Positions 5,898 to 53,881 of a DNA stretch of 64,000 nucleotides are shown here, piece after piece. The stretch covers positions 24,211 to 88,210 of the forward strand of contig CABUGH010000002.1 in assembly GCA_902491155.1 (NCBI GenBank), in the 5' to 3' direction. This stretch comes from an uncultured Clostridium sp. (GTDB taxonomy: Bacteria; Bacillota; Clostridia; TANB77; CAG-508). Both the position numbers and the translations under genes were made by a program. The notes under the pieces were generated by a model, which ran no database searches, was not told the DNA's origin, and was given only the letters and a program-made list of their open reading frames with translations. Numbering within the stretch: position 1 is the stretch's first letter; each line of letters begins with the position of its first letter.

Positions 5898-6090
5898 ATC
5901 TATCTCCTCCTCATAAAAACACCAATCATATAAATTCAATGCAATTATACTATTTCATCACATTTTTGTAAAGTTTTTTTGGCATTTTATCACACTTTTG
6001 CAAGTAATGTTTTTTGCTCCGTCACTAAAACATCATGCATAAATTCAAAATTAACAAATAAACTTTAGTATATATAGGAGGTCGTATATT

Positions 6091-7341
6091 ATGCATTTTC
6101 TAAAATTGTTTATAAACTTTTTTATTATCATTTCTTTAATATCTTTCCCATTTTCACGTTGTTTTGCCATAGATGACAGCAGCTACATCTGGTCTTATTT
6201 CAATAGTGACTCTATACTAGTAAATTCAGAAAACAATTCAAAAAACGCAATTAATGAATCAGAAAACAATTCCCTTAATTTAGAATCCGAAAGTGCCATT
6301 TTAATAGAACAAAAAACTGGCCAAATCTTATACAGCCATAACATTCATGAGCAATTGCGTCCTGCTTCTGTTACAAAAGTAATGAGTATTCTATTAATTA
6401 TGGAAGCACTTTCAAATCAAAAAATCTCTCTAACAGACTCTGTTCCATGTTCTGAAAACGCTGCATCTATGGGAGGTTCTCAAATTTGGCTTGATCCAAG
6501 AGAAACATTATCTGTTGATGATATGCTTAAAGCTATATGTGTTAATTCTGCCAATGATTGCGTAGTAGCCATGGCCGAGTTTATTGCTGGCTCTGAAGAA
6601 GCTTTTGTTCAAATGATGAACGATAAAGCAAAAGAACTTGGTATGAATGATACATGTTTTAAAAATTGCCACGGCCTAGATGAAGATGGACACATTACAT
6701 CTAGTTATGATATTTCTGTTATGTCAAGAGAATTGTTAAATAAATATCCTGACATTACTAAATATACAACCATTTGGATGGACAGTTTACGTGACGGAAA
6801 ATCACAACTTTCAAACACCAACAAATTAATTAAAAACTACAAAGGTGCCACAGGCCTAAAAACAGGTTCTACTTCTTTAGCCTTATATAATTTATCCGCT
6901 AGTGCCACTCGTGATAATCTTTCTTTAATTGCTGTTATTATGAAAGCTCCAAGCACTAAAACAAGGTTTGCCGAAGCACAAAAATTATTAGATTATGGAT
7001 TCGGACATTTTTCCTTTAAAAGTTTTGGCAATAAAGGTGATTTAATAAAAACCATAAACGTTTCTAAAGGTGTTAAATCTCAAATAGATATTGTTTTAGA
7101 AAACAATAGTGGAGCATTAATAGAAAAAGGAAAAGATAGCCAAATTACTCAAACCATAACCCTACCTGATTCAGTTTCTGCACCAGTCCATTCTGGTCAA
7201 AAAATCGGTGAAGCAACCTTTACTCTTAATGGCAAAACACTTGCTACAACAAATTTAATTGCTAAAAATAATGTAGAAAAATTAAATCCTTTTACAATGA
7301 GTAAATCAATTATTTATAATTGGATTAATTTACTCAGATAA
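6091..7341 (+). CDS. D-alanyl-D-alanine carboxypeptidase (PBP5/DacB/DacF family)
   Basis: AGGAGG RBS, signal peptide, SVTK (SxxK), SAN (SxN) and KTGST (KTG) motifs in order. Confidence 0.9.
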   Translation: MHFLKLFINFFIIISLISFPFSRCFAIDDSSYIWSYFNSDSILVNSENNSKNAINESENNSLNLESESAILIEQKTGQILYSHNIHEQLRPASVTKVMSILLIMEALSNQKISLTDSVPCSENAASMGGSQIWLDPRETLSVDDMLKAICVNSANDCVVAMAEFIAGSEEAFVQMMNDKAKELGMNDTCFKNCHGLDEDGHITSSYDISVMSRELLNKYPDITKYTTIWMDSLRDGKSQLSNTNKLIKNYKGATGLKTGSTSLALYNLSASATRDNLSLIAVIMKAPSTKTRFAEAQKLLDYGFGHFSFKSFGNKGDLIKTINVSKGVKSQIDIVLENNSGALIEKGKDSQITQTITLPDSVSAPVHSGQKIGEATFTLNGKTLATTNLIAKNNVEKLNPFTMSKSIIYNWINLLR

Positions 7342-7380
7342 GAAGAACAAAACAAACATAAAACATTTATAACACACAAT

Positions 7381-7411
7381 AAAAATCCTCCGGTTAAGCC
7401 GGAAGATTTTT
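7381..7411. terminator. Bidirectional terminator between the dac gene and nrdG
   Basis: AAAAATCCTCCGG-TTAAG-CCGGAAGATTTTT. Confidence 0.6.
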
Positions 7412-7417
7412 ATATGC

Positions 7418-7906
7418 TTAAATTAATACAACCTTATTTTCTTTTAAACTTTCTTGCACATCAATAACTCTTTGATTAGATGAACCTTTCCATTTCAATT
7501 TAGGATTATGCAACTCATCCATATATTGACCATCAACCAAAACATCTAAATATTTTACAACTTCTTTATCTTTTAAATCTTTATCAAATTTAAAACCTGA
7601 CCAAGCCCATAAATTTTTATTAGGAAATTTTTGTTTAAAAGCCTTTGCAAGTCTAGTTGTTCCCTCAATATTTTTAGGATTCATTGGCTCACCACCTAAA
7701 ATAGAAAGCCCCTCTACATTCTCATTTTCACATAATTCTAATACTCTATCTATTGTGCCATCTGTAAATTCTTTACCACCATTAAAATCATGTGTTTCCG
7801 GATTAAAACAATTTTTACAATTAAATGTACAACCCTGCATAAATATAGACACTCTAACCCCTGGTCCATCTGATATATCCATTTTTCTAATTTTATTATA
7901 TCTCAT
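7418..7906 (-). CDS. nrdG: Anaerobic ribonucleoside-triphosphate reductase activating protein (radical SAM)
   Basis: CTFNCKNC cluster motif, directly downstream of nrdD; ATG at 7904-7906 preferred over the TTG at 7912. Confidence 0.9.
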   Translation of the reverse strand: MRYNKIRKMDISDGPGVRVSIFMQGCTFNCKNCFNPETHDFNGGKEFTDGTIDRVLELCENENVEGLSILGGEPMNPKNIEGTTRLAKAFKQKFPNKNLWAWSGFKFDKDLKDKEVVKYLDVLVDGQYMDELHNPKLKWKGSSNQRVIDVQESLKENKVVLI

Positions 7907-19840: not shown

Positions 19841-20098
19841 AAAAAAGCTATTTACATCCTTTTAGGACGAAATAGCTTTACTTCCGCGGTACCACCTAAT
19901 TTAATAATCTATCTTTTTTGATTATTCACTCTATTTTCTTTAACGCAGATTTACGTCTTTACTTATTTTCTTTTAGATTTCAGTAAAGAAACATAAGGTG
20001 ATAACATATTATTTTTACTTACCAAATTTGCAGCTACCTTTGGCTCTCTTTAAGTTATTACACAATATGTGTTGTCCTTATTTTGTCTTTTTTATTTA
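19841..20098 (-). promoter_or_regulatory. T-box riboswitch leader (Ile) of ileS
   Basis: The reverse strand has four elements. AGAGAG..GGTAGCTG at the stem I base; a candidate specifier GAA-ATC (19976-19978); the T-box sequence ATTAGGTGGTACCGCGGAAG (19881-19900); and the terminator AAAGCTATTT..AAATAGCTTTTTT (19841-19879). Confidence 0.8.
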
Positions 20099-48946: not shown

Positions 48947-50188
48947 TTATTTTGTATGTCTTAAAATCCAGTCTTTCTCACATTTTACAGGAATATGTAA
49001 TAAAATTTGTTGTCCCTTAACACCTGGGCTAACATGGTCAACCTCTTCACCTGTTTCTGCATCCCACAATTTTTCTATTTTAAATTTAACTGGCTCAAAC
49101 TCGTTTGGTATTAATAATTCCAATTCATCCCCAACTTGCAAACGGTTTCTAATTTCTACAACTGTTTTTTCAACATCATATTTTACAACTTTACCACCAA
49201 ACTCATATTTTTCATTATATTGCCTACCAGCATATTCTTGAATATCTTTATTATTTCTATCATTAAAATAAAATGTAGTTAAACTTCTTGTTTTTATCTT
49301 TTCTAATTCTTTTAAATATTTAGCTCCATCATAATGTTGTGGATCTTTAATATAATCATCAATAGCAGCTCTATAAACAGATACAACACTAGCAATATAA
49401 TATTCAGTTTTTAACCTTCCTTCTATCTTTAAGCTATCAATTCCCATATCAACAATTTCTGGTATTTCATTTATTAAACACAAATCTTTTGATGAAAATA
49501 TACTTGTACCATATTCATTTGTTTCTATAGGCATATATTCACCAGGTGTATTTTTTTCTTCTGCATACAAATTATATGACCATCTACAACTTTGACTACA
49601 TGAACCCAAATTTGCACTTCTTCCTGACAAAAAATCACTTAAAAAACATCTACCAGAATATGCAAAACAAATTGCTCCATGAATAAATATCTCTACTTCC
49701 ATATCTTCTGGCTTATTTTCCATTATATATCTTATTTGTTCTTTATTTAATTCTCTTGCAAGAATCATTCTCTTTCCACCATTTTTATACCAGAAATTTG
49801 CAGCATGTAAACTTACAATATTTGCTTGTGTACTAACATGTATATCAATATTTGGCGCATATTGCTTTATTACCTCCATTACTCCTCCATCTGCTACTAT
49901 TACAGCATCTGGCTTTATTTCATTTAAAATTTTAGCCATTTCTACTATCTCGTCATATTTATCATCCCATGCAAATATATTTATTGTTACATATACTCTT
50001 CTTCCTATACTATGTGCATAATTTATGGTTTTTATTAAATCCTCATTTTCCATGTCTGCTCTTGTTCTTAATGATAATGATGAAGTTCCACAATATACTG
50101 CATCTGCTCCATATAAAAATGCTATTTTTGCTTTTTCAAATGACCCTGCTGGGGCTAACAATTCTGGTTTTTTCATTTTACTATTCAT
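48947..50188 (-). CDS. Peptidase U32 family protein (TrhP/YrrO-like)
   Basis: KPELLAPAGSFEKAKIAFLYGADAVY...E.F.HGA.C...SGRC motifs; start at 50188 or 50176. Confidence 0.85.
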   Translation of the reverse strand: MNSKMKKPELLAPAGSFEKAKIAFLYGADAVYCGTSSLSLRTRADMENEDLIKTINYAHSIGRRVYVTINIFAWDDKYDEIVEMAKILNEIKPDAVIVADGGVMEVIKQYAPNIDIHVSTQANIVSLHAANFWYKNGGKRMILARELNKEQIRYIMENKPEDMEVEIFIHGAICFAYSGRCFLSDFLSGRSANLGSCSQSCRWSYNLYAEEKNTPGEYMPIETNEYGTSIFSSKDLCLINEIPEIVDMGIDSLKIEGRLKTEYYIASVVSVYRAAIDDYIKDPQHYDGAKYLKELEKIKTRSLTTFYFNDRNNKDIQEYAGRQYNEKYEFGGKVVKYDVEKTVVEIRNRLQVGDELELLIPNEFEPVKFKIEKLWDAETGEEVDHVSPGVKGQQILLHIPVKCEKDWILRHTK

Positions 50189-50254
50189 TCCTTCCCTATC
50201 TCCGCTAAAATACTTTTTTAGTATATCATAAAATGTTAAAAAATACAACGAAAC

Positions 50255-50283
50255 TTGCCCTTTTTTACAATTTATGGTATACT
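50255..50283 (+). promoter_or_regulatory. Sigma-A promoter with extended -10 for the RSH-like gene pair
   Basis: TTGCCC-N17 (ending TGg)-TATACT, about 20 nt before the RBS of 50305. Confidence 0.5.
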
Positions 50284-50304
50284 TTTTCTATGGGAGTGAT
50301 ATGT

Positions 50305-51525
50305 ATGTCTAATAAATATGATTTATTTAGAGCTTCTTTGTCTGTACCAATGTTTGAAAATTTAAATCAATCTTTATTCAATTTATTAAAAACTCCAGAA
50401 TATCAAAATTATACTGATATTGTGTTTTCAACACTAGGAAAAGAATTTGAAAAATATTTTGGAAAAGATATGATTTTTAAATATAGATATAAATCTCAAA
50501 ATAGTTTTACTAGGAATATTTTAAAAGATTCTTCTATAAAAAATGATAAAACGACAAAATATGTTTCTAACTTTAATCCATATATCCATTATGATATAAT
50601 TGGAATGAAAATAGTTATTAAACATATTCCAGAAGATTTTAAAATTTCCCCTAGCTTTATTAAAACATGTGAAGAAAAAGAAAAAAGATACCAAAAAAAA
50701 TTATTTGATTTACAAAAACAATGCTATTCTAAAAATCACGACTTAGAAAATGACCAAGAAAAAAACAGTATCGCGCACAAAAAAATATTACATTTAGAAC
50801 GCTATTTGCTATACTTAAATGATTGCTGCAATTTTAACCAAATATTAGAAAGACGAAACACACTAGCGAATAATTATTGTATTTTACAAAAAACCATAAA
50901 TAATCATTCACAAAATAATAATTTTGATTTAAACGAATTAAAGTTAGAGTTTGAAACAACTGAATTTGCATTAAAAAATCTAAATAGTTTATTAAATACT
51001 ATAGCTGGTGAATATGCTATCGAAGAAATTTTTGAAAAATCAGAAAATCTAAAAAAACTTGGTGTGCACTTAAACCCAAATCGTCAAAAGTTTTTTTCCG
51101 AAGAAAAAGGATATACATCAATGCATTTTTCAATTGAAAGTTCTAAACTTAACCATTGGATAAGTGAATTACAAGACCTTTCTTCTTCTATTGATTACTT
51201 ATCAGTTAAAAGTCATGATGCATTACCTGGCAAAAAAAGGCATCTTATGAATTTACCTAAAAATATTAATAAACAACTTTCAAAAAAATATATCAAATCC
51301 TTTAAAAATATATCCCCAAGCTATACTATTTACAAATTTAATGGATATATAGAAAGGTACAATATGAGAAAAAATTTGCATCATTATTATAACACACTAT
51401 TAAAAAACAACCCAGAGTACACAAAAAAATTACACTCTATAATTGACAACAAAGAAAACGAACCATTTTTACCTGTATTACAACCACAACTTAAAAAAAT
51501 TTTAGAAAATGATATTAGTCGATAA
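50305..51525 (+). CDS. Divergent RelA/SpoT-like nucleotidyltransferase-fold protein with a large insertion (406 aa)
   Basis: GGGAG RBS before the ATG at 50305. Ordered motifs YRYKSQNSFTRNILK, YDIIGMKIVIK, KGYTSMHF, SELQDL resemble SAS motifs RvK..S...K, D..G.RI, GYrS.H, E.Q.RT. Confidence 0.6.
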   Translation: MSNKYDLFRASLSVPMFENLNQSLFNLLKTPEYQNYTDIVFSTLGKEFEKYFGKDMIFKYRYKSQNSFTRNILKDSSIKNDKTTKYVSNFNPYIHYDIIGMKIVIKHIPEDFKISPSFIKTCEEKEKRYQKKLFDLQKQCYSKNHDLENDQEKNSIAHKKILHLERYLLYLNDCCNFNQILERRNTLANNYCILQKTINNHSQNNNFDLNELKLEFETTEFALKNLNSLLNTIAGEYAIEEIFEKSENLKKLGVHLNPNRQKFFSEEKGYTSMHFSIESSKLNHWISELQDLSSSIDYLSVKSHDALPGKKRHLMNLPKNINKQLSKKYIKSFKNISPSYTIYKFNGYIERYNMRKNLHHYYNTLLKNNPEYTKKLHSIIDNKENEPFLPVLQPQLKKILENDISR

Positions 51526-51544
51526 TAATAAAAGGAGATAATGT

Positions 51545-53254
51545 ATGAAAAAAGAAATAAATAGTTTTTTAGAATCATTAAAAATATCAGACGAGAAGAA
51601 TTTAGACAGAACCGAATTGCAAAACCAACAAGAATTTTTGCACAAAGCAGTTTCTTCTTATTTAGATACTTATCAAGACAAAAATTCTGTTGAAGCCAAA
51701 GAATATATGTGTTATCTTGCTGCTGCAATTTATTTATCATATAAAAAATTGTACCCAAATTTAGTAGTGCGCATACCTTTCCGTACAAAAAGTGACATCA
51801 GTTATATAAAAAACATACAAAAAGAATTCGAAAAAAGTCTTGCAAACGTCTCTAAGAATATTAATTCAGATGAACCTATAACTTTAGAAACATTACAAAA
51901 ATATTTTTCAACAGATCCAACAACTAAAGATATTCAAGCAGCAACAATAGTTTTAGATCATTTTAAGGAGCCTGTATTACTTACTTATGAACCTGGCAAA
52001 TATGATGATCCAAACAATGCTAATTTACCTAATAAAAATGATCCTGACTTTTGTGAATCAATTGACTCCCTAGTTGAAAAAGATAAAAAATACACTGAAT
52101 TTATAACAGTTTCAAAGCCAAAAATAAATGAATTCATTTCGGAAAAAACATTTCTTAACTTTAAAAAACAAATTTTACAAGGAATAATTGATTTAAATTA
52201 CCATGGAATTGATGAAGAACGCCATCCCTCTTATGAACAAGAACTAAAATTAGTTGAAGAACGCATAACTGCTGGAATGCTTCAAAACAACTTTGCATCT
52301 TCAATAACAGAATTGCAAAGATATGAACTAAAAACTCTATTATCAAATATGCAACATCTTCTTGAAGATAAACTGCAATTCAATATTTTAAATAATACAA
52401 TACAAAATGTGCTAAACCAAAATTTAATAAAAAATACATTAGATGTTTCTTATGATTATTCTAAAACATCTAAAAAGTCAAATGGATTTGCTGCCATTTA
52501 TTATACTCTACACACACCATATGGTGAAATTGAACTATTTTTGCAATCAAATGAAAGATTTTATCAAGCAAAAAAAGGATCAGCATATCACAGTGGAATG
52601 TCTGGTAAATCTTTAGATATAAAATCATTTTTTGAATACATCAATCCTGAAAACGAAACCGAAGAATTATCCGATTTTTTAGACTCTGTTGATGTACCTG
52701 TTTCTATTTTGGAAGATGACACAAATCCAAAACAATTAAAAGAAATTAGTGATAAATTATCAAGAATTAAAATAAAAGACAATATAGATGTTGATATGAC
52801 AGTACCTACTAGTGTTATGCTTGATAATAGTACAACAAAAATAGATGATGAAAGTCTTAGAAAAAAATCAATAGCAGAGAAAAAAATTAATAATACTCCA
52901 AAAGTCACAATGGATACAGATGATTATTTATATTCTCTTGCAATATCTCGTTCTGCCTGCCTAAACACATGCAGCTCTGGTCATGGTTTTTCTCCAAACG
53001 CAGCTATTCATCATCAAGATATTGATGATGAATTTGCAGAAGTTTTAAGACGTAGAGATTCCTTAACTTGCCTTGGAAACATGCTATTAAAAAGACTTCG
53101 TACTGTTTTAAAAACATCTAAATTAGGCGACCATGCAAATATTAACAAAAATCTTTCTCTTTCACGTTTACCTAAGCAAATAACCATAGAAGAAATTTTA
53201 GAATATGGAGAACAATTAAATAATTCACAATCTACTGATGAAATAGAATTATAA
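51545..53254 (+). CDS. Second, apparently catalytically degenerate RelA/SpoT-like paralogue with C-terminal extension (569 aa)
   Basis: AAGGAGA RBS. Motifs FRTKSDISYIKNIQK, KDIQAATIVLD, NGFAAIYYTL, GEIELFLQS occur in the same order and spacing as in the upstream gene, but with substitutions at conserved positions. Confidence 0.55.
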   Translation: MKKEINSFLESLKISDEKNLDRTELQNQQEFLHKAVSSYLDTYQDKNSVEAKEYMCYLAAAIYLSYKKLYPNLVVRIPFRTKSDISYIKNIQKEFEKSLANVSKNINSDEPITLETLQKYFSTDPTTKDIQAATIVLDHFKEPVLLTYEPGKYDDPNNANLPNKNDPDFCESIDSLVEKDKKYTEFITVSKPKINEFISEKTFLNFKKQILQGIIDLNYHGIDEERHPSYEQELKLVEERITAGMLQNNFASSITELQRYELKTLLSNMQHLLEDKLQFNILNNTIQNVLNQNLIKNTLDVSYDYSKTSKKSNGFAAIYYTLHTPYGEIELFLQSNERFYQAKKGSAYHSGMSGKSLDIKSFFEYINPENETEELSDFLDSVDVPVSILEDDTNPKQLKEISDKLSRIKIKDNIDVDMTVPTSVMLDNSTTKIDDESLRKKSIAEKKINNTPKVTMDTDDYLYSLAISRSACLNTCSSGHGFSPNAAIHHQDIDDEFAEVLRRRDSLTCLGNMLLKRLRTVLKTSKLGDHANINKNLSLSRLPKQITIEEILEYGEQLNNSQSTDEIEL

Positions 53255-53275
53255 TACTTTAAAAGACATGACTAA

Positions 53276-53881
53276 TTATATATTAGCCATGTCTTTATTA
53301 TATCTACTAATTGCTAATCCATCCCCAACTTCTAAAATTTCTGTTTTTAGTTCCGGATTTTCCATTACTTCTTTTATATATTCTCTTAAATTTCTAACAG
53401 CTGTACGCTGTTTATGCTTATTATAATCACTCATAACATATCCTTTATATAAAATATTATCTGCAAATATTATTCCATTTTTATTTAACATACGCAAAGC
53501 CTGGTTTAAAAAGAAAGGATATTTTCCCTTTGCTGCATCAATAAACACCATGTCATATTTTTCTGTTAAAGTTGGTAATATCTCTACTGCATCACCTTCA
53601 TATAAAGTTATAATGTCTTGAACTCCTACTTTTTTAAAATTTTCCTTAGCTTCTGCTATTCGTTCTTCTTCTCTTTCTATTGTATCAATACTTCCACCAT
53701 CTGATAAAAACTCTGAAAAACACATTGCAGAATATCCAACAGCCGCTCCAATTTCCAAGATTTTTTTTGGTGCATTCTCTTTTAAATATTTTTCTATAAC
53801 TTCTAAAGTATCATCCATTATTATTGGTATATGTTCTTGTAATGCCTTTTGTTTTATTTTTTCTAATTCTTCTTTGTTCAT
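53276..53881 (-). CDS. Class I SAM-dependent O-methyltransferase (family 3, TrmR/YrrM-like)
   Basis: ILEIGAAVGYSA SAM-binding motif and DMVFIDAAK; about 200 aa, as for YrrM. Confidence 0.8.
   Translation of the reverse strand: MNKEELEKIKQKALQEHIPIIMDDTLEVIEKYLKENAPKKILEIGAAVGYSAMCFSEFLSDGGSIDTIEREEERIAEAKENFKKVGVQDIITLYEGDAVEILPTLTEKYDMVFIDAAKGKYPFFLNQALRMLNKNGIIFADNILYKGYVMSDYNKHKQRTAVRNLREYIKEVMENPELKTEILEVGDGLAISRYNKDMANI

What the first reader, a model, noticed from the sequence alone, without database searches (positions are those of the whole stretch)
50233..53254. Two tandem, highly divergent RelA/SpoT-like genes inserted antisense between the trmR-like methyltransferase and its U32 peptidase partner
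Seen: ORFs 50305-51525 (406 aa) and 51545-53254 (569 aa) are 19 nt apart. Each has a GGAG-type RBS. They follow a TTGCCC-N17-TGgTATACT promoter and lie on the + strand between two - strand genes. By eye, both carry the motifs of the RelA/SpoT synthetase domain in canonical order (B. subtilis SAS1: GRVKPVASILEKARRK / DIAGLRI / GYRSYHL / EIQIRT / H..YK). Protein 1 has YRYKSQNSFTRNILK / YDIIGMKIVIK / KGYTSMHF / SELQDL / KSHDALPGKK. Protein 2 has FRTKSDISYIKNIQK / KDIQAATIVLD / NGFAAIYYTL / GEIELFLQS / AYHSGMSGK. Protein 2 is substituted at most catalytic positions (G to A, R to T, Y to F, H to Y, Q to E, R to F) and adds about 200 C-terminal residues. Protein 1 keeps more of them. In both, roughly 170-190 residues of coiled-coil-like sequence separate motifs 2 and 3, where small alarmone synthetases have about 40. 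Established: toxic SAS enzymes (FaRel, PhRel, CapRel types) act as toxin-antitoxin or anti-phage modules. YrrM/TrmR and the U32 peptidases YrrN/YrrO are adjacent genes of one tRNA-modification pathway in B. subtilis. Inference: a 3-kb accessory cassette encoding an enzyme plus pseudo-enzyme pair, possibly nucleotide signalling, toxin/antitoxin or defence. I do not recognise this architecture from any described RSH subfamily.
Basis: partly seen in the sequence, partly recalled or inferred. Interest (0 to 1): 0.8.

Follow-up and report, generated by a model that had tools for sequence, protein, structure and literature searches.

The report
Split RelA/SpoT-like gene pair, swappable slot
Two adjacent unannotated genes in an uncultured gut Clostridia genome encode very divergent relatives of the enzymes that make the bacterial alarm signal (p)ppGpp, each with its catalytic domain split by a large helical insert, and they sit in a chromosomal slot whose contents differ between relatives and, in one related species, between strains.

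Summary
ORFs 50305-51525 (P1, 406 aa) and 51545-53254 (P2, 569 aa), the RBSs and every quoted motif are present.

The RelA/SpoT (RSH) reading is supported, but only by family-level evidence:
- Full-length P1 and P2 hit nothing in Pfam, NCBIfam, PADLOC or PDB sequences.
- After removing the 140-185-residue helical insertion, 20 of 29 family members hit PF04607.
- The P2 profile reaches 153 unnamed protein clusters. Two of them (P0190, P0220) pass Pfam's own PF04607 threshold, with the model split around the insertion.
- Across 81 very diverse members, only RxKxxxS, D, G, ExQ and H are conserved.
- P1 joins this superfamily at 99.2% probability.

"Accessory cassette" is only partly right. There is no phage, plasmid, defence-library or GC signal, and the slot between the U32 peptidase and the methyltransferase is always the same. 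Its contents vary: P2 alone, P1+P2, P1 plus a canonical 308-aa synthetase (P3), or P3 alone. In one related species P2 and P3 are alternative cassettes between flanks 98.6-99.4% identical. Intact P1 is always followed by P2 or P3. P2 copies beside P1 have lost the motif-2 arginine.

Biochemical function is inferred, not shown. I rate it a new variant of a known kind.

The parts
50255..50283 (+). Promoter-like element TTGCCC-N17-TATACT with TG before the -10 hexamer, in the 116-nt divergent intergenic region shared with the U32 gene
   Evidence: It is the only such site in the intergenic region, but promoter-like sites are at chance frequency in this AT-rich DNA, so this is a plausible rather than a demonstrated promoter.
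50305..51525 (+). P1, 406 aa: insertion-bearing RSH-fold protein. It keeps all eight superfamily-conserved residues (R61, K63, S67, D97, G269, E288, Q290, H304).
   Evidence: hhalign of A1 against the broad superfamily A5: 99.2%, E 1.8e-19, 292 columns. Insertion-deleted homologues hit PF04607 at E 1.5e-4 to 0.018. AlphaFold model pTM 0.79.
50482..50622 (+). P1 core, N-terminal half: motif 1 YRYKSQNSFTRNILK (residues 60-74) and motif 2 YDIIGMKIVIK (residues 96-106). The window has Lys where the family has Arg.
50635..51054 (+). P1 helical insertion (residues ~111-250, four long helices) splitting the synthetase domain. It is the most variable part of the protein.
   Evidence: Model secondary structure. 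Mean pairwise identity 0.48 against 0.67-0.69 for the core. It aligns with the insertion of the wider superfamily.
51106..51237 (+). P1 core, C-terminal half: G-loop KGYTSMHF, catalytic SELQDLSS and KSHDALPGKK. The Leu in SELQDLSS is codon CTT, where the family has Arg.
51526..51544 (+). 19-nt spacer with an AAGGAGA RBS, following P1's stop codon TAA at 51523-51525. The first six bases of the spacer are two further in-frame TAA codons (TAA TAA TAA in all). This implies co-transcription of P1 and P2.
   Evidence: In relatives the two genes are 50-70 nt apart, or overlap by 11 nt.
51545..53254 (+). P2, 569 aa: insertion-bearing RSH-fold protein with an extra C-terminal region. It is the usual occupant of this slot across the clade.
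   Evidence: Exhaustive profile search found 153 clusters. There is a transitive link to the PF04607-positive proteins P0190 and P0220. AlphaFold model pLDDT 86, pTM 0.84.
51779..51958 (+). P2 core, N-terminal half: motif 1 FRTKSDISYIKNIQK and motif 2 KDIQAATIVLD. The Asp is kept; the Gly and Arg are lost.
51971..52444 (+). P2 helical insertion (residues ~143-300)
   Evidence: Mean pairwise identity 0.40, the lowest of the large regions.
52472..52609 (+). P2 core, C-terminal half: G-loop KKSNGFAAIYY (compare KPNGYQS in RelA), GEIELFLQS (Glu kept, Gln replaced by Phe) and GSAYHSGMSGK
52631..53251 (+). P2 C-terminal region (residues 363-569). It contains the most conserved block of the family, residues 461-518 (YL.S.A.S.S....C.SGH....A.IHH...I.EF.EVLRK.D..TCL). 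No known domain matches it.
   Evidence: Short hits matching only this region are gene fragments.
48947..50188 (-). Flank: U32 peptidase (TrhP/YrrN-like). It forms the left border of the slot.
   Evidence: Pfam PF01136 E 2e-87. The ATG at 50188 is the likely start.
53276..53881 (-). Flank: Methyltransf_3 O-methyltransferase (TrmR/YrrM-like), convergent with P2. Its 3' end is the right recombination border in the related species.
   Evidence: Pfam PF01596 E 3e-28. Breakpoint mapping in L062 and L063.

Best explanation
What it is. P1 and P2 are co-transcribed tandem paralogues from an unnamed branch of the RelA/SpoT-homologue (RSH) synthetase-fold family. This branch is invisible to Pfam at full length. 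Its hallmark is a 166-424-residue helical module inserted between the motif-2 strand (D..G.R) and the G-loop (NGY/F).

Where it sits (shown). The genes occupy one fixed chromosomal slot, antisense between the U32 peptidase and TrmR-like methyltransferase genes, in a clade of uncultured gut Clostridia. The slot itself is inherited vertically. Its contents are exchanged by homologous recombination through the conserved flanks. The contents seen are P2 alone, P1+P2, P1 plus a canonical 308-aa small alarmone synthetase (P3), or P3 alone. P2 and P3 segregate as alternative cassettes within one related species.

How it most likely works (inferred, not shown). The reaction would be Mg2+-dependent transfer of the beta,gamma-pyrophosphate of ATP to the 3'-OH of a purine nucleotide, giving an alarmone-type product, or to an RNA 3' end. 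P1 keeps the full conserved residue set and is probably the catalytic partner. P2 copies that sit beside a P1 have lost the motif-2 arginine, and in this window also the Gln of ExQ. P2 here is therefore probably a weakened or regulatory partner, possibly in a hetero-oligomer. The variable helical insertion and P2's conserved C-terminal block would gate activity.
For: Homology to RSH:
- Insertion-deleted cores of 20 of 29 members hit PF04607 over model positions 2-105 of 113 (best E 2e-5). No other family is hit by more than 2 members.
- The A2 profile hits P0190 (E 5e-13) and P0220 (E 4e-8) in 1.84 billion proteins. Both pass Pfam's gathering score. P0190 scores 27.6 bits, with residues 76-133 matching model positions 1-55. 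P0220 scores 36.2 bits, with residues 373-427 matching model positions 60-111. The domain is therefore split around the insertion.
- 8 of 81 full-length relatives hit PF04607.
- In 81 members at 11% mean identity, only K, D and E are invariant and only R, S, G, Q and H nearly so.
- P1 against the superfamily: 99.2%, E 2e-19. P1 against P2: 95.7%.
- RelSeq and SpoT chains are 8 of the top 50 Foldseek hits, though not significant.
- The order of secondary-structure elements in both models is consistent with the fold.

Locus:
- Same slot in 27 GTDB loci and 18 metagenome loci.
- P3 occupies the same slot.
- L062 (P2) and L063 (P3) are 98-100% identical up to the last ~30 codons of P1 and again from the methyltransferase stop, and unalignable in between.
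- Each allele is on 36 or 55 contigs, up to 1.3-1.6 Mb long.
- Between-allele flank identity is 99.35% and 98.61%, no lower than within-allele identity.

Pair logic:
- Intact P1 is always followed by P2 or P3.
- 8 of 8 P2 copies beside a P1 have Thr at the motif-2 Arg position, against 5 of 18 solitary P2 copies.
- Both genes are under purifying selection with raised dN.
Against: - The window's own P1 and P2 give no PF04607 hit, even with the insertion removed. The assignment rests on family-level and transitive evidence.
- Foldseek found nothing significant for either model.
- hhalign against the canonical P3 family is weak: E 5e-4 and 0.02 for the trimmed cores, and 70.6% for A3 against A5.
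- I chose the trimming boundaries from the model. The untrimmed relatives mitigate this.
- No biochemical or expression data exist. Substrate, product, oligomeric state and the roles assigned to P1 and P2 are inference.
- The link between P1 presence and P2 motif state follows phylogeny, so the copies are not independent observations.
- The window's P1 itself carries two unusual substitutions, Arg to Lys in motif 2 and Arg to Leu in ELQD(R)SS, so calling it the active partner is not secure.
- The within-species swap was seen in a relative whose BipA is 92% identical to the window's, not in the window's own species.
- dS is near saturation.
Confidence: 0.6

Rival explanations
1. Ordinary housekeeping small alarmone synthetase. 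P2, like P3, is simply this clade's RelQ/RelP-type (p)ppGpp synthetase for stress signalling. P1 is a redundant duplicate, and the divergence reflects relaxed constraint in small-genome gut Clostridia.
For: - Fixed chromosomal position with host-like G+C.
- A canonical PF04607 synthetase (P3) occupies the same slot.
- Solitary genes among housekeeping genes, with no partner gene, in most lineages and in distant relatives.
- Purifying selection.
- Conserved ATP- and Mg-binding residues and a canonical KPNG(Y/F)Q(S/A) G-loop.
Against: - A housekeeping enzyme would not be expected to segregate as two unalignable alleles (549 aa against 308 aa) within one species.
- It would not be expected to evolve at 3-5 times the dN of its neighbours.
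- It would not be expected to gain and lose a tandem paralogue repeatedly.
- Size and architecture are far from RelQ and RelP.
Confidence: 0.25
2. Conflict or defence module of the toxic-SAS kind. P2 would be a fused effector-sensor like CapRel: the RSH domain is held inactive by the insertion or C-terminal block until a phage or stress trigger binds, and it then pyrophosphorylates tRNA or depletes ATP. Alternative cassettes would be kept by balancing selection.
For: - Within-species cassette dimorphism and high dN.
- A variable insertion beside a conserved catalytic core.
- Variable N- and C-terminal extensions across the superfamily.
- Lineage-specific ORFs accumulate around the slot.
- CapRel is a precedent for a fused RSH held inactive by its own C-terminal domain (PMC9712102).
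Against: - No PADLOC hit for P1, P2 or 81 relatives.
- No relatives in phage or plasmid records or IMG/VR.
- Not in a defence island, and no mobile-element genes at the slot.
- The alternative allele P3 is a plain 308-aa synthetase with no sensor domain and no antitoxin.
- P2's C-terminal block is the most conserved part of the protein, whereas CapRel's sensor domain is the least conserved.
Confidence: 0.25
3. Two-gene toxin-antitoxin pair. P1 would be a toxic synthetase neutralised by the downstream RSH paralogue (P2 or P3).
For: - Intact P1 never occurs without P2 or P3 immediately downstream, at a gap of about 20-150 nt or an 11-nt overlap.
- The only P1 without a partner (L005) is frameshifted.
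- Some toxSAS subfamilies are encoded in conserved two-gene (sometimes three-gene) operons (PMC7229694).
Against: - Antitoxins described for toxSAS are small binding proteins or SAH hydrolases, not 300-570-aa synthetase paralogues (PMC7229694; PMC9712102).
- P2 and P3 are each conserved on their own in most lineages, so they have a function independent of P1.
- A 308-aa canonical synthetase and a 549-aa divergent one would both have to neutralise the same P1, which is 94% identical between L062 and L063.
- The L005 assembly may simply be error-prone.
Confidence: 0.1
4. Recently acquired mobile accessory cassette: a 3-kb element inserted into the trmR-U32 operon of this genome.
For:
- The contents of the slot are variable.
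Against: - The same slot is occupied in every relative fetched, across hosts (human, rabbit, chicken) and down to about 84% BipA identity (lowest value, L025).
- G+C is 24-28% against 23-32% in the flanks.
- No repeats, integrase or transposase at the borders.
- No phage, plasmid or viral relatives.
- Exchange appears to occur by homologous recombination in the conserved flanks.
Confidence: 0.05
5. Not RSH at all: the motif resemblance is chance in low-complexity, AT-rich coding sequence.
For: - No full-length Pfam, NCBIfam or PDB-sequence hit.
- Foldseek not significant.
Against: - Convergent, independent lines of evidence.
- The only residues conserved across 81 members at 11% identity are the RSH catalytic set, in canonical order.
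Confidence: 0.03

Closest known systems
Small alarmone synthetases RelQ (YjbM) and RelP (YwaC) of Firmicutes; Pfam PF04607 RelA_SpoT
   Same: - Same five motifs in the same order: RxKxxxS, D..G.R, (K.N)G(Y/F).S.H, E.Q.R(T/S), H...K.
- Same conserved Asp and Glu.
- Stand-alone synthetase proteins without a hydrolase domain.
- The positional alternative P3 matches RelQ, RelP and Rel chains in the PDB directly.
   Different: - 406 and 569 aa instead of about 210-230.
- The domain is split by a 140-185-residue helical insertion.
- P2 adds about 200 C-terminal residues.
- The superfamily has E.Q.Q(S/T) and H...GK instead of E.Q.RT and H..YK.
- Full-length sequences are invisible to PF04607.
CapRel(SJ46), a fused toxSAS anti-phage protein (PMC9712102)
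   Same: - One polypeptide with an RSH synthetase domain plus extra C-terminal structure.
- The paper names two adenine-coordinating arginines, R79 and R116, and the G-loop tyrosine Y155. That they correspond to the motif-1 Arg, the motif-2 Arg and the G-loop aromatic residue here is my inference.
- Rapidly evolving non-catalytic parts.
   Different: - No sequence or structure match to CapRel or its pseudo-ZFD.
- The C-terminal block here is the most conserved region, not the most variable.
- The extra module is inserted inside the catalytic domain.
- Fixed housekeeping locus rather than a prophage or defence island.
Bicistronic toxSAS toxin-antitoxin modules: FaRel, FaRel2, PhRel, PhRel2 (PMC7229694)
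   Same: - A tightly linked two-gene operon containing an RSH synthetase.
- Lineage-variable presence of one partner.
   Different: - Both genes are RSH paralogues.
- No small antitoxin or SAH hydrolase gene.
- P2 is usually solitary.
- No mobile or phage association was found.
cloRel and divRel groups in the RSH classification of Atkinson et al. 2011 (PMC3153485)
   Same: - cloRel is listed as a Firmicutes-restricted SAS group, and divRel as unplaced divergent synthetases.
- P3, or the Pfam-visible fringe of this superfamily (P0190, P0220), could fall in such groups.
   Different: - The paper gives no description of an insertion-bearing architecture.
- Their HMM-based surveys would probably miss P1 and P2.
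- Membership could not be tested because their HMMs are not available here.

Membership tests
RSH superfamily, synthetase (SYNTH) domain, Pfam PF04607 | Significant match of the protein itself to the PF04607 profile | tested here: not met
   The window's P1 and P2 give no hit at E<=1 at full length, and none at E<=10 after removing the insertion.
RSH superfamily, synthetase (SYNTH) domain, Pfam PF04607 | Homology to PF04607 members shown at family level (profile or transitive) | tested here: met
   20 of 29 insertion-deleted members hit PF04607, best E 2e-5, covering model positions 2-105 of 113. The A2 profile hits P0190 (E 5e-13) and P0220 (E 4e-8), which score 27.6 and 36.2 bits against a gathering score of 27. 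A1 against superfamily A5 gives 99.2%.
RSH superfamily, synthetase (SYNTH) domain, Pfam PF04607 | Catalytic signature in canonical order: RxKxxxS, metal-binding Asp (D..G.R), G-loop aromatic residue, catalytic Glu (E.Q), His motif | tested here: met
   These are the only invariant or near-invariant columns in 81 members and in the combined P1+P2 alignment. The window's P1 has all eight. The window's P2 has seven of eight (Gln replaced by Phe) and lacks the motif-2 Gly and Arg.
RSH superfamily, synthetase (SYNTH) domain, Pfam PF04607 | Three-dimensional fold superimposable on RelQ, RelP or RelSeq synthetase domains | tested here: inconclusive
   The order of secondary-structure elements fits. 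RelSeq and SpoT chains make up 8 of the top 50 Foldseek hits for P2, but at E about 1. P1 hits only coiled-coil and BAR-like structures. The excised core could not be searched.
RSH superfamily, synthetase (SYNTH) domain, Pfam PF04607 | ATP-dependent 3'-pyrophosphotransferase activity | not testable with these tools
   Needs biochemistry.
Small alarmone synthetase (RelQ/RelP type) | Compact single SYNTH domain of about 200-250 aa with no other modules | tested here: not met
   406 and 569 aa, with a 140-185-residue insertion inside the domain and a 200-residue C-terminal region in P2.
Small alarmone synthetase (RelQ/RelP type) | GYxSxH and ExQxRT motifs intact | tested here: inconclusive
   The P1 family has GYTSMH and ELQDRS, but the window's P1 has ELQDLS. 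The P2 family has GF.A.Y and ELQAQS.
toxSAS toxin-antitoxin module | Conserved operon with a cognate small antitoxin or SAH hydrolase | tested here: not met
   No such gene occurs in any locus. P2 and P3 are usually solitary, and P1's partner is another RSH paralogue.
toxSAS toxin-antitoxin module | Toxicity neutralised by the partner | not testable with these tools
   Needs expression assays.
CapRel-type fused toxSAS / known defence systems | Match to CapRel or any curated defence-system model, or a pseudo-ZFD C-terminal domain | tested here: not met
   PADLOC gives nothing for P1 or P2 and nothing consistent for 81 relatives. There is no PDB sequence or Foldseek match to CapRel chains. The C-terminal region has no Pfam match.
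Mobile accessory cassette (phage, plasmid or island-borne) | Relatives on phages, plasmids or viral contigs; atypical composition; mobility genes at the borders | tested here: not met
   plus the gene tables.
cloRel SAS subgroup (Atkinson 2011) | Placement by the authors' subgroup HMMs or phylogeny | not testable with these tools
   The paper gives only the name and its distribution in Firmicutes.

The most novel reading that the evidence does not exclude
The insertion-bearing RSH branch is a new functional class. Its members would be chromosomal, fixed-slot pyrophosphokinases whose product or target is not classical (p)ppGpp, for example (p)ppApp, tRNA or another RNA 3' end, or a new nucleotide. 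The internal helical module would act as a sensor. The within-species dimorphism between P2 and a canonical synthetase would be maintained by balancing selection, for example from phage or competitors. The P1-P2 pair would then be an enzyme plus pseudo-enzyme hetero-oligomer without precedent among RSH proteins.
Probability: 0.2. Interest if true: 0.8.

Novelty: new variant of a known kind. Interest (0 to 1): 0.6.

Why it matters
RSH enzymes control the stringent response, persistence and, as toxic SAS proteins, anti-phage immunity. Surveys of the family rely on HMMs of the contiguous synthetase domain. This work shows three things.

- **A hidden branch.** At least 153 clusters (at 50% identity) of gut-Firmicute proteins have a split synthetase domain and escape Pfam, NCBIfam and NCBI naming. 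All are labelled 'hypothetical protein'. RSH diversity in the gut microbiome is therefore under-counted.
- **A natural enzyme/degenerate-paralogue pair.** Residue losses in the two proteins are complementary, which gives a tractable system for asking how RSH activity is regulated by a partner.
- **A within-species swap.** A canonical alarmone synthetase and a 549-aa divergent one replace each other between identical flanks. This is unusual for a signalling enzyme, and it directly raises the question of whether alarmone-type chemistry is under balancing selection in gut commensals.

All three points are testable with standard biochemistry and existing metagenomes.

Tried and rejected
Searches that found nothing useful:
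- Full-length scans of P1 and P2 against Pfam, NCBIfam and PADLOC.
- phmmer and profile searches against PDB sequences. They returned only coiled-coil noise.
- Foldseek of the whole models against PDB and BFVD. Nothing was significant; the helical insertion dominates the P1 search.
- tblastn against phage and plasmid records.
- IMG/VR scans.
- PHROGs. The only result was a weak, probably spurious baseplate hit for P1.
- Pfam on P2's C-terminal region.

Weak or inconclusive comparisons:
- BLASTP of P1 against P2 is not significant. Their homology needed profiles.
- hhalign against the single P3 sequence or the narrow P3 family gave colinear but weak alignments.

Ideas rejected:
- A stand-alone form of the C-terminal domain. 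The short hits are gene fragments or chimeras.
- L050 as evidence of a swap in the window's own species. Its left half is 99.9% identical to the window and its right half 99.9% identical to the L013 lineage. It is a 2.5-kb contig at 2x coverage, so an assembly chimera cannot be excluded.
- The promoter and terminator scan as evidence. Site counts are at chance level.

Errors and limits:
- In some searches my P3 query was overwritten with garbage, so P3 was not detected there. This was corrected. The state labels on the tree should read P1+P3 for L001 and L002, and P3 for L039-L042.
- I suspected the clade is GTDB order TANB77, but this comes from memory only and could not be verified.

Full report
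**1. The observation**

ORFs 50305-51525 (P1, 406 aa) and 51545-53254 (P2, 569 aa) lie on the + strand. They sit between a U32 peptidase (PF01136, E 2e-87) and a Methyltransf_3 gene (PF01596, E 3e-28), both on the - strand, with BipA further on. Homologue N-termini support the 50305 start. P1 ends TAA TAA TAA, followed by AAGGAGA and 6 nt before the P2 ATG. P1 has GGGAG 8 nt upstream, and a TTGCCC-N17-TGgTATACT element lies at 50255-50283. Promoter-like sites are at chance frequency in this DNA (24 found against 22.4 expected), and no intrinsic terminator was found. All quoted motif strings are present.

**2. Are they RelA/SpoT-like?**

Direct tests fail:
- Pfam gives nothing at E<=1, and NCBIfam and PADLOC give nothing.
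- PDB sequence searches give nothing meaningful.
- P1 against P2 by BLASTP is not significant.

AlphaFold models are good: P1 has pTM 0.79 and P2 has pLDDT 86 and pTM 0.84. Both show the same order of elements: a helix, a strand carrying R.K, a helix, a strand carrying the Asp, then four to six long helices, then strands carrying G(Y/F) and E.Q, then a helix. Foldseek is not significant. P1 hits only BAR and coiled-coil proteins. P2 has RelSeq and SpoT chains at 8 of the top 50 ranks, but at E about 1.

The block is the insertion, which splits the domain. I removed it using the helical boundaries of the models, keeping P1 residues 25-112 plus 246-320 and P2 residues 40-145 plus 295-365. Four results followed.
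- P1 and P2 align at 95.7% probability, E 1e-8, through all five motifs.
- 20 of 29 trimmed family members hit PF04607 over model positions 2-105 of 113. The best E is 2e-5, and no other Pfam family is hit by more than two members.
- Both families contribute. P1 members score E 1.5e-4 to 0.018 and P2 members 2e-5 to 0.01. The window's own two copies do not hit.
- The columns invariant across both families are R, K, S, N and K of motif 1, the motif-2 Asp, a Lys before the G-loop, the motif-4 Glu, and H...K.

Evidence that does not depend on trimming is stronger.
- An exhaustive profile search with the P2 family against 1.84 billion representatives found 153 proteins at E<=1e-3 and 114 at E<=1e-10.
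- Across 81 of them, at 11% mean column identity, the invariant columns are K, D and E and the near-invariant ones R, S, G, Q and H.
- Every member has RxKxxxS, D..(G/A).(K/T/R), an insertion of 166-424 residues, NG(Y/F), E.Q.Q(S/T) and H...GK.
- Eight of these full-length proteins hit PF04607 directly.
- P0220 scores 36.2 bits, with residues 373-427 matching model positions 60-111. P0190 scores 27.6 bits, with residues 76-133 matching model positions 1-55. Both reach the gathering score of 27, with the Pfam model split on either side of the insertion. They match the P2 profile at E 4e-8 and 5e-13.
- P1 with its insertion intact matches the broad alignment at 99.2%, E 1.8e-19, over 292 columns including the insertion.

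I conclude that both proteins belong to an unnamed, insertion-bearing branch of the RSH synthetase-fold family. None of the clusters checked carries a name other than 'hypothetical protein'. NCBIfam and PADLOC do not recognise the branch.

**3. Is P2 a pseudo-enzyme?**

Only partly. P2 keeps R80, K82, S86, D129, G314, E330 and H349, and it has a KKSNGF G-loop close to the KPNGYQS of RelA. It lacks the motif-2 Gly and Arg (KDIQAATIV), and in this subclade the Gln of E.Q (IELFLQS).

The motif-2 arginine probably corresponds to one of the two adenine-coordinating arginines described for CapRel, R79 and R116 (PMC9712102). That mapping is my inference.

Across loci, 8 of 8 distinct P2 copies that sit next to a P1 have Thr at this position. 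Among solitary P2 copies, 13 of 18 keep DISG.R or DISG.K. The pattern follows phylogeny, so it is suggestive only.

P1 keeps all eight conserved residues and the more canonical GYTSMH. The window's copy, however, has Lys for Arg in motif 2 and Leu (CTT) for the family's Arg (CGT) in ELQD(R)SS.

Both genes are under purifying selection (dN/dS 0.06-0.27). Their dN is 3-5 times that of U32 and the methyltransferase and 10-25 times that of BipA. dS is near saturation.

Within P2, the catalytic core (0.54-0.59 mean pairwise identity) and a C-terminal block at residues 456-520 (0.64) are the most conserved parts. The insertion (0.40) and the tails are the most variable. The C-terminal region matches no Pfam family and was not found as a stand-alone protein.

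**4. The locus**

A scan of GTDB species representatives with the P2 family found 27 loci. All are uncultured gut Clostridia MAGs from human, rabbit and chicken. In every one the gene lies in the same gap between U32 and the methyltransferase. This survey was seeded with P2, so it cannot reveal empty sites.

| Contents of the slot | Loci |
|---|---|
| P2 alone | most loci |
| P1+P2 | window, L012-14, L019, L021, L031, L034, L051-59, L062 |
| P1 + P3 (canonical 308-aa PF04607 synthetase, E 7e-17) | L001-4, L060, L061, L063 |
| P3 alone | L039-42 |
| Frameshifted P1 with no partner | L005 |
| Extra P2-like copy | L029 |

Intact P1 is always immediately followed by P2 or P3.

G+C is 24-28% against 23-32% in the flanks. 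No relatives occur in phage or plasmid records, IMG/VR or PHROGs.

Distant superfamily members are solitary genes among housekeeping genes such as Pth, AspRS, RF-1 and Rho.

**5. Cassette swap within a species**

L062 (P1+P2) and L063 (P1+P3) are 98-100% identical at the DNA level up to the last ~30 codons of P1. They are again 95-100% identical from the methyltransferase stop onward. The 1.1-1.7 kb in between is unalignable, at about 40% identity.

Both alleles are real. The exact P2 sequence is on 36 contigs and the exact P3 sequence on 55, including contigs of 1.35 and 1.64 Mb. Each sits in the same 12-kb neighbourhood in five independent samples.

Flank identity between the allele groups is 99.35% on the left and 98.61% on the right. 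Within the groups it is 99.2-99.4% on the left and 98.0-99.1% on the right. P2 and P3 therefore segregate in one recombining population.

The nearest sampled P2 to L062's is only 61-64% identical, so the alleles are old or come from an unsampled donor. This species is a relative of the window's, with BipA 92% identical.

A similar-looking hybrid that involves the window's own sequence, L050, may be an assembly chimera and is not counted.

**6. Interpretation**

Shown:
- Membership of the RSH fold family at family level.
- Paralogy of P1 and P2.
- A fixed slot with variable contents.
- P1's dependence on a downstream P2 or P3.
- Purifying selection with fast evolution.

Inferred:
- Pyrophosphotransfer from ATP.
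- P1 as the catalytic partner and P2 as the weakened or regulatory partner in this window.
- Gating by the insertion and the C-terminal block.

The physiological role is unresolved. It could be strain-variable alarmone signalling or a conflict or defence function. The cassette dimorphism and high dN argue against a plain housekeeping enzyme. The absence of any mobile or defence signature, together with the plain synthetase P3 as the alternative allele, argues against a typical defence system.

**7. Comparison with what is known**

The chemistry is most like RelQ and RelP. The domain logic is most like CapRel. The gene arrangement superficially resembles toxSAS toxin-antitoxin pairs (PMC7229694, PMC9712102). 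It fails the defining features of each (see the membership table). 'cloRel' (PMC3153485) is a bare name and could not be tested.

**Verdict.** This is a new variant of a known kind, of moderate to high interest.

Noticed in passing
L062:5100-6830 versus L063:5100-6290 (also L068-L072 versus L073-L077): Within one species, a 549-aa divergent RSH (P2) and a canonical 308-aa PF04607 synthetase (P3) are alternative cassettes between flanks that are 98.6-99.4% identical. The breakpoints lie in the last ~30 codons of P1 and at the methyltransferase stop codon.
   Followed up: yes
L050:1-2534 (window 49573-52094): Hybrid contig. Its left 1.1 kb is 99.9% identical to the window and its right 1.4 kb is 99.9% identical to the L013 lineage, with the junction inside P1 near window position 50700. 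It is either a real inter-species recombinant or an assembly chimera (2x coverage).
   Followed up: partly
L005:7519-8855: P1 homologue broken into at least three reading frames, with no P2 or P3 downstream. This is the only P1 found without a partner. It comes from a highly fragmented assembly (GCA_037193195.1), so sequencing error is possible.
   Followed up: partly
L029:1232-2188: A second, very divergent P2-like ORF (27% identity) lies upstream of the regular P2. This would be an independent tandem duplication in the same slot.
   Followed up: no
P0113, P0122, P0125, P0132, P0134, P0136, P0141, P0142 and similar: Superfamily members of 640-785 aa carry N-terminal extensions of 195-330 residues with no Pfam match. 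Their contexts are unknown because the contigs are short.
   Followed up: partly
L015:5655-6242 (-), L034:3968-4555 (-), L009:2578-4593 (-), L015:6979-8901 (-), L039:6872-8455 (-): Other lineage-specific ORFs accumulate around the slot: two unrelated 195-aa proteins next to P2 or P1, and large helical or TPR-like proteins of 527-671 aa between the methyltransferase and BipA. The whole U32-MT-BipA neighbourhood is locally variable.
   Followed up: no
window 53262-53296: Inverted repeat AAAGACATG ... CATGTCTTT with a 17-nt loop, spanning the 21-nt gap between the convergent P2 and methyltransferase stop codons and running into the methyltransferase 3' end. It may be a weak bidirectional terminator. 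The terminator scan did not call it.
   Followed up: no
window 19860-20087 (-): T-box leader (Rfam RF00230, 94.4 bits). It is the only Rfam family above threshold in the window.
   Followed up: no
L074:4707-5897: One P1 homologue (396 aa) carries a precomputed 'faint' PF04607 hit in the public collection. This gives independent weak support for the RSH assignment of the P1 family.
   Followed up: no
L068-L072:4821-6011 and 6001-7650: In strains with the P2 allele, the P1 stop overlaps the P2 start by 11 nt, suggesting translational coupling. In strains with the P3 allele the two genes are about 100 nt apart.
   Followed up: no
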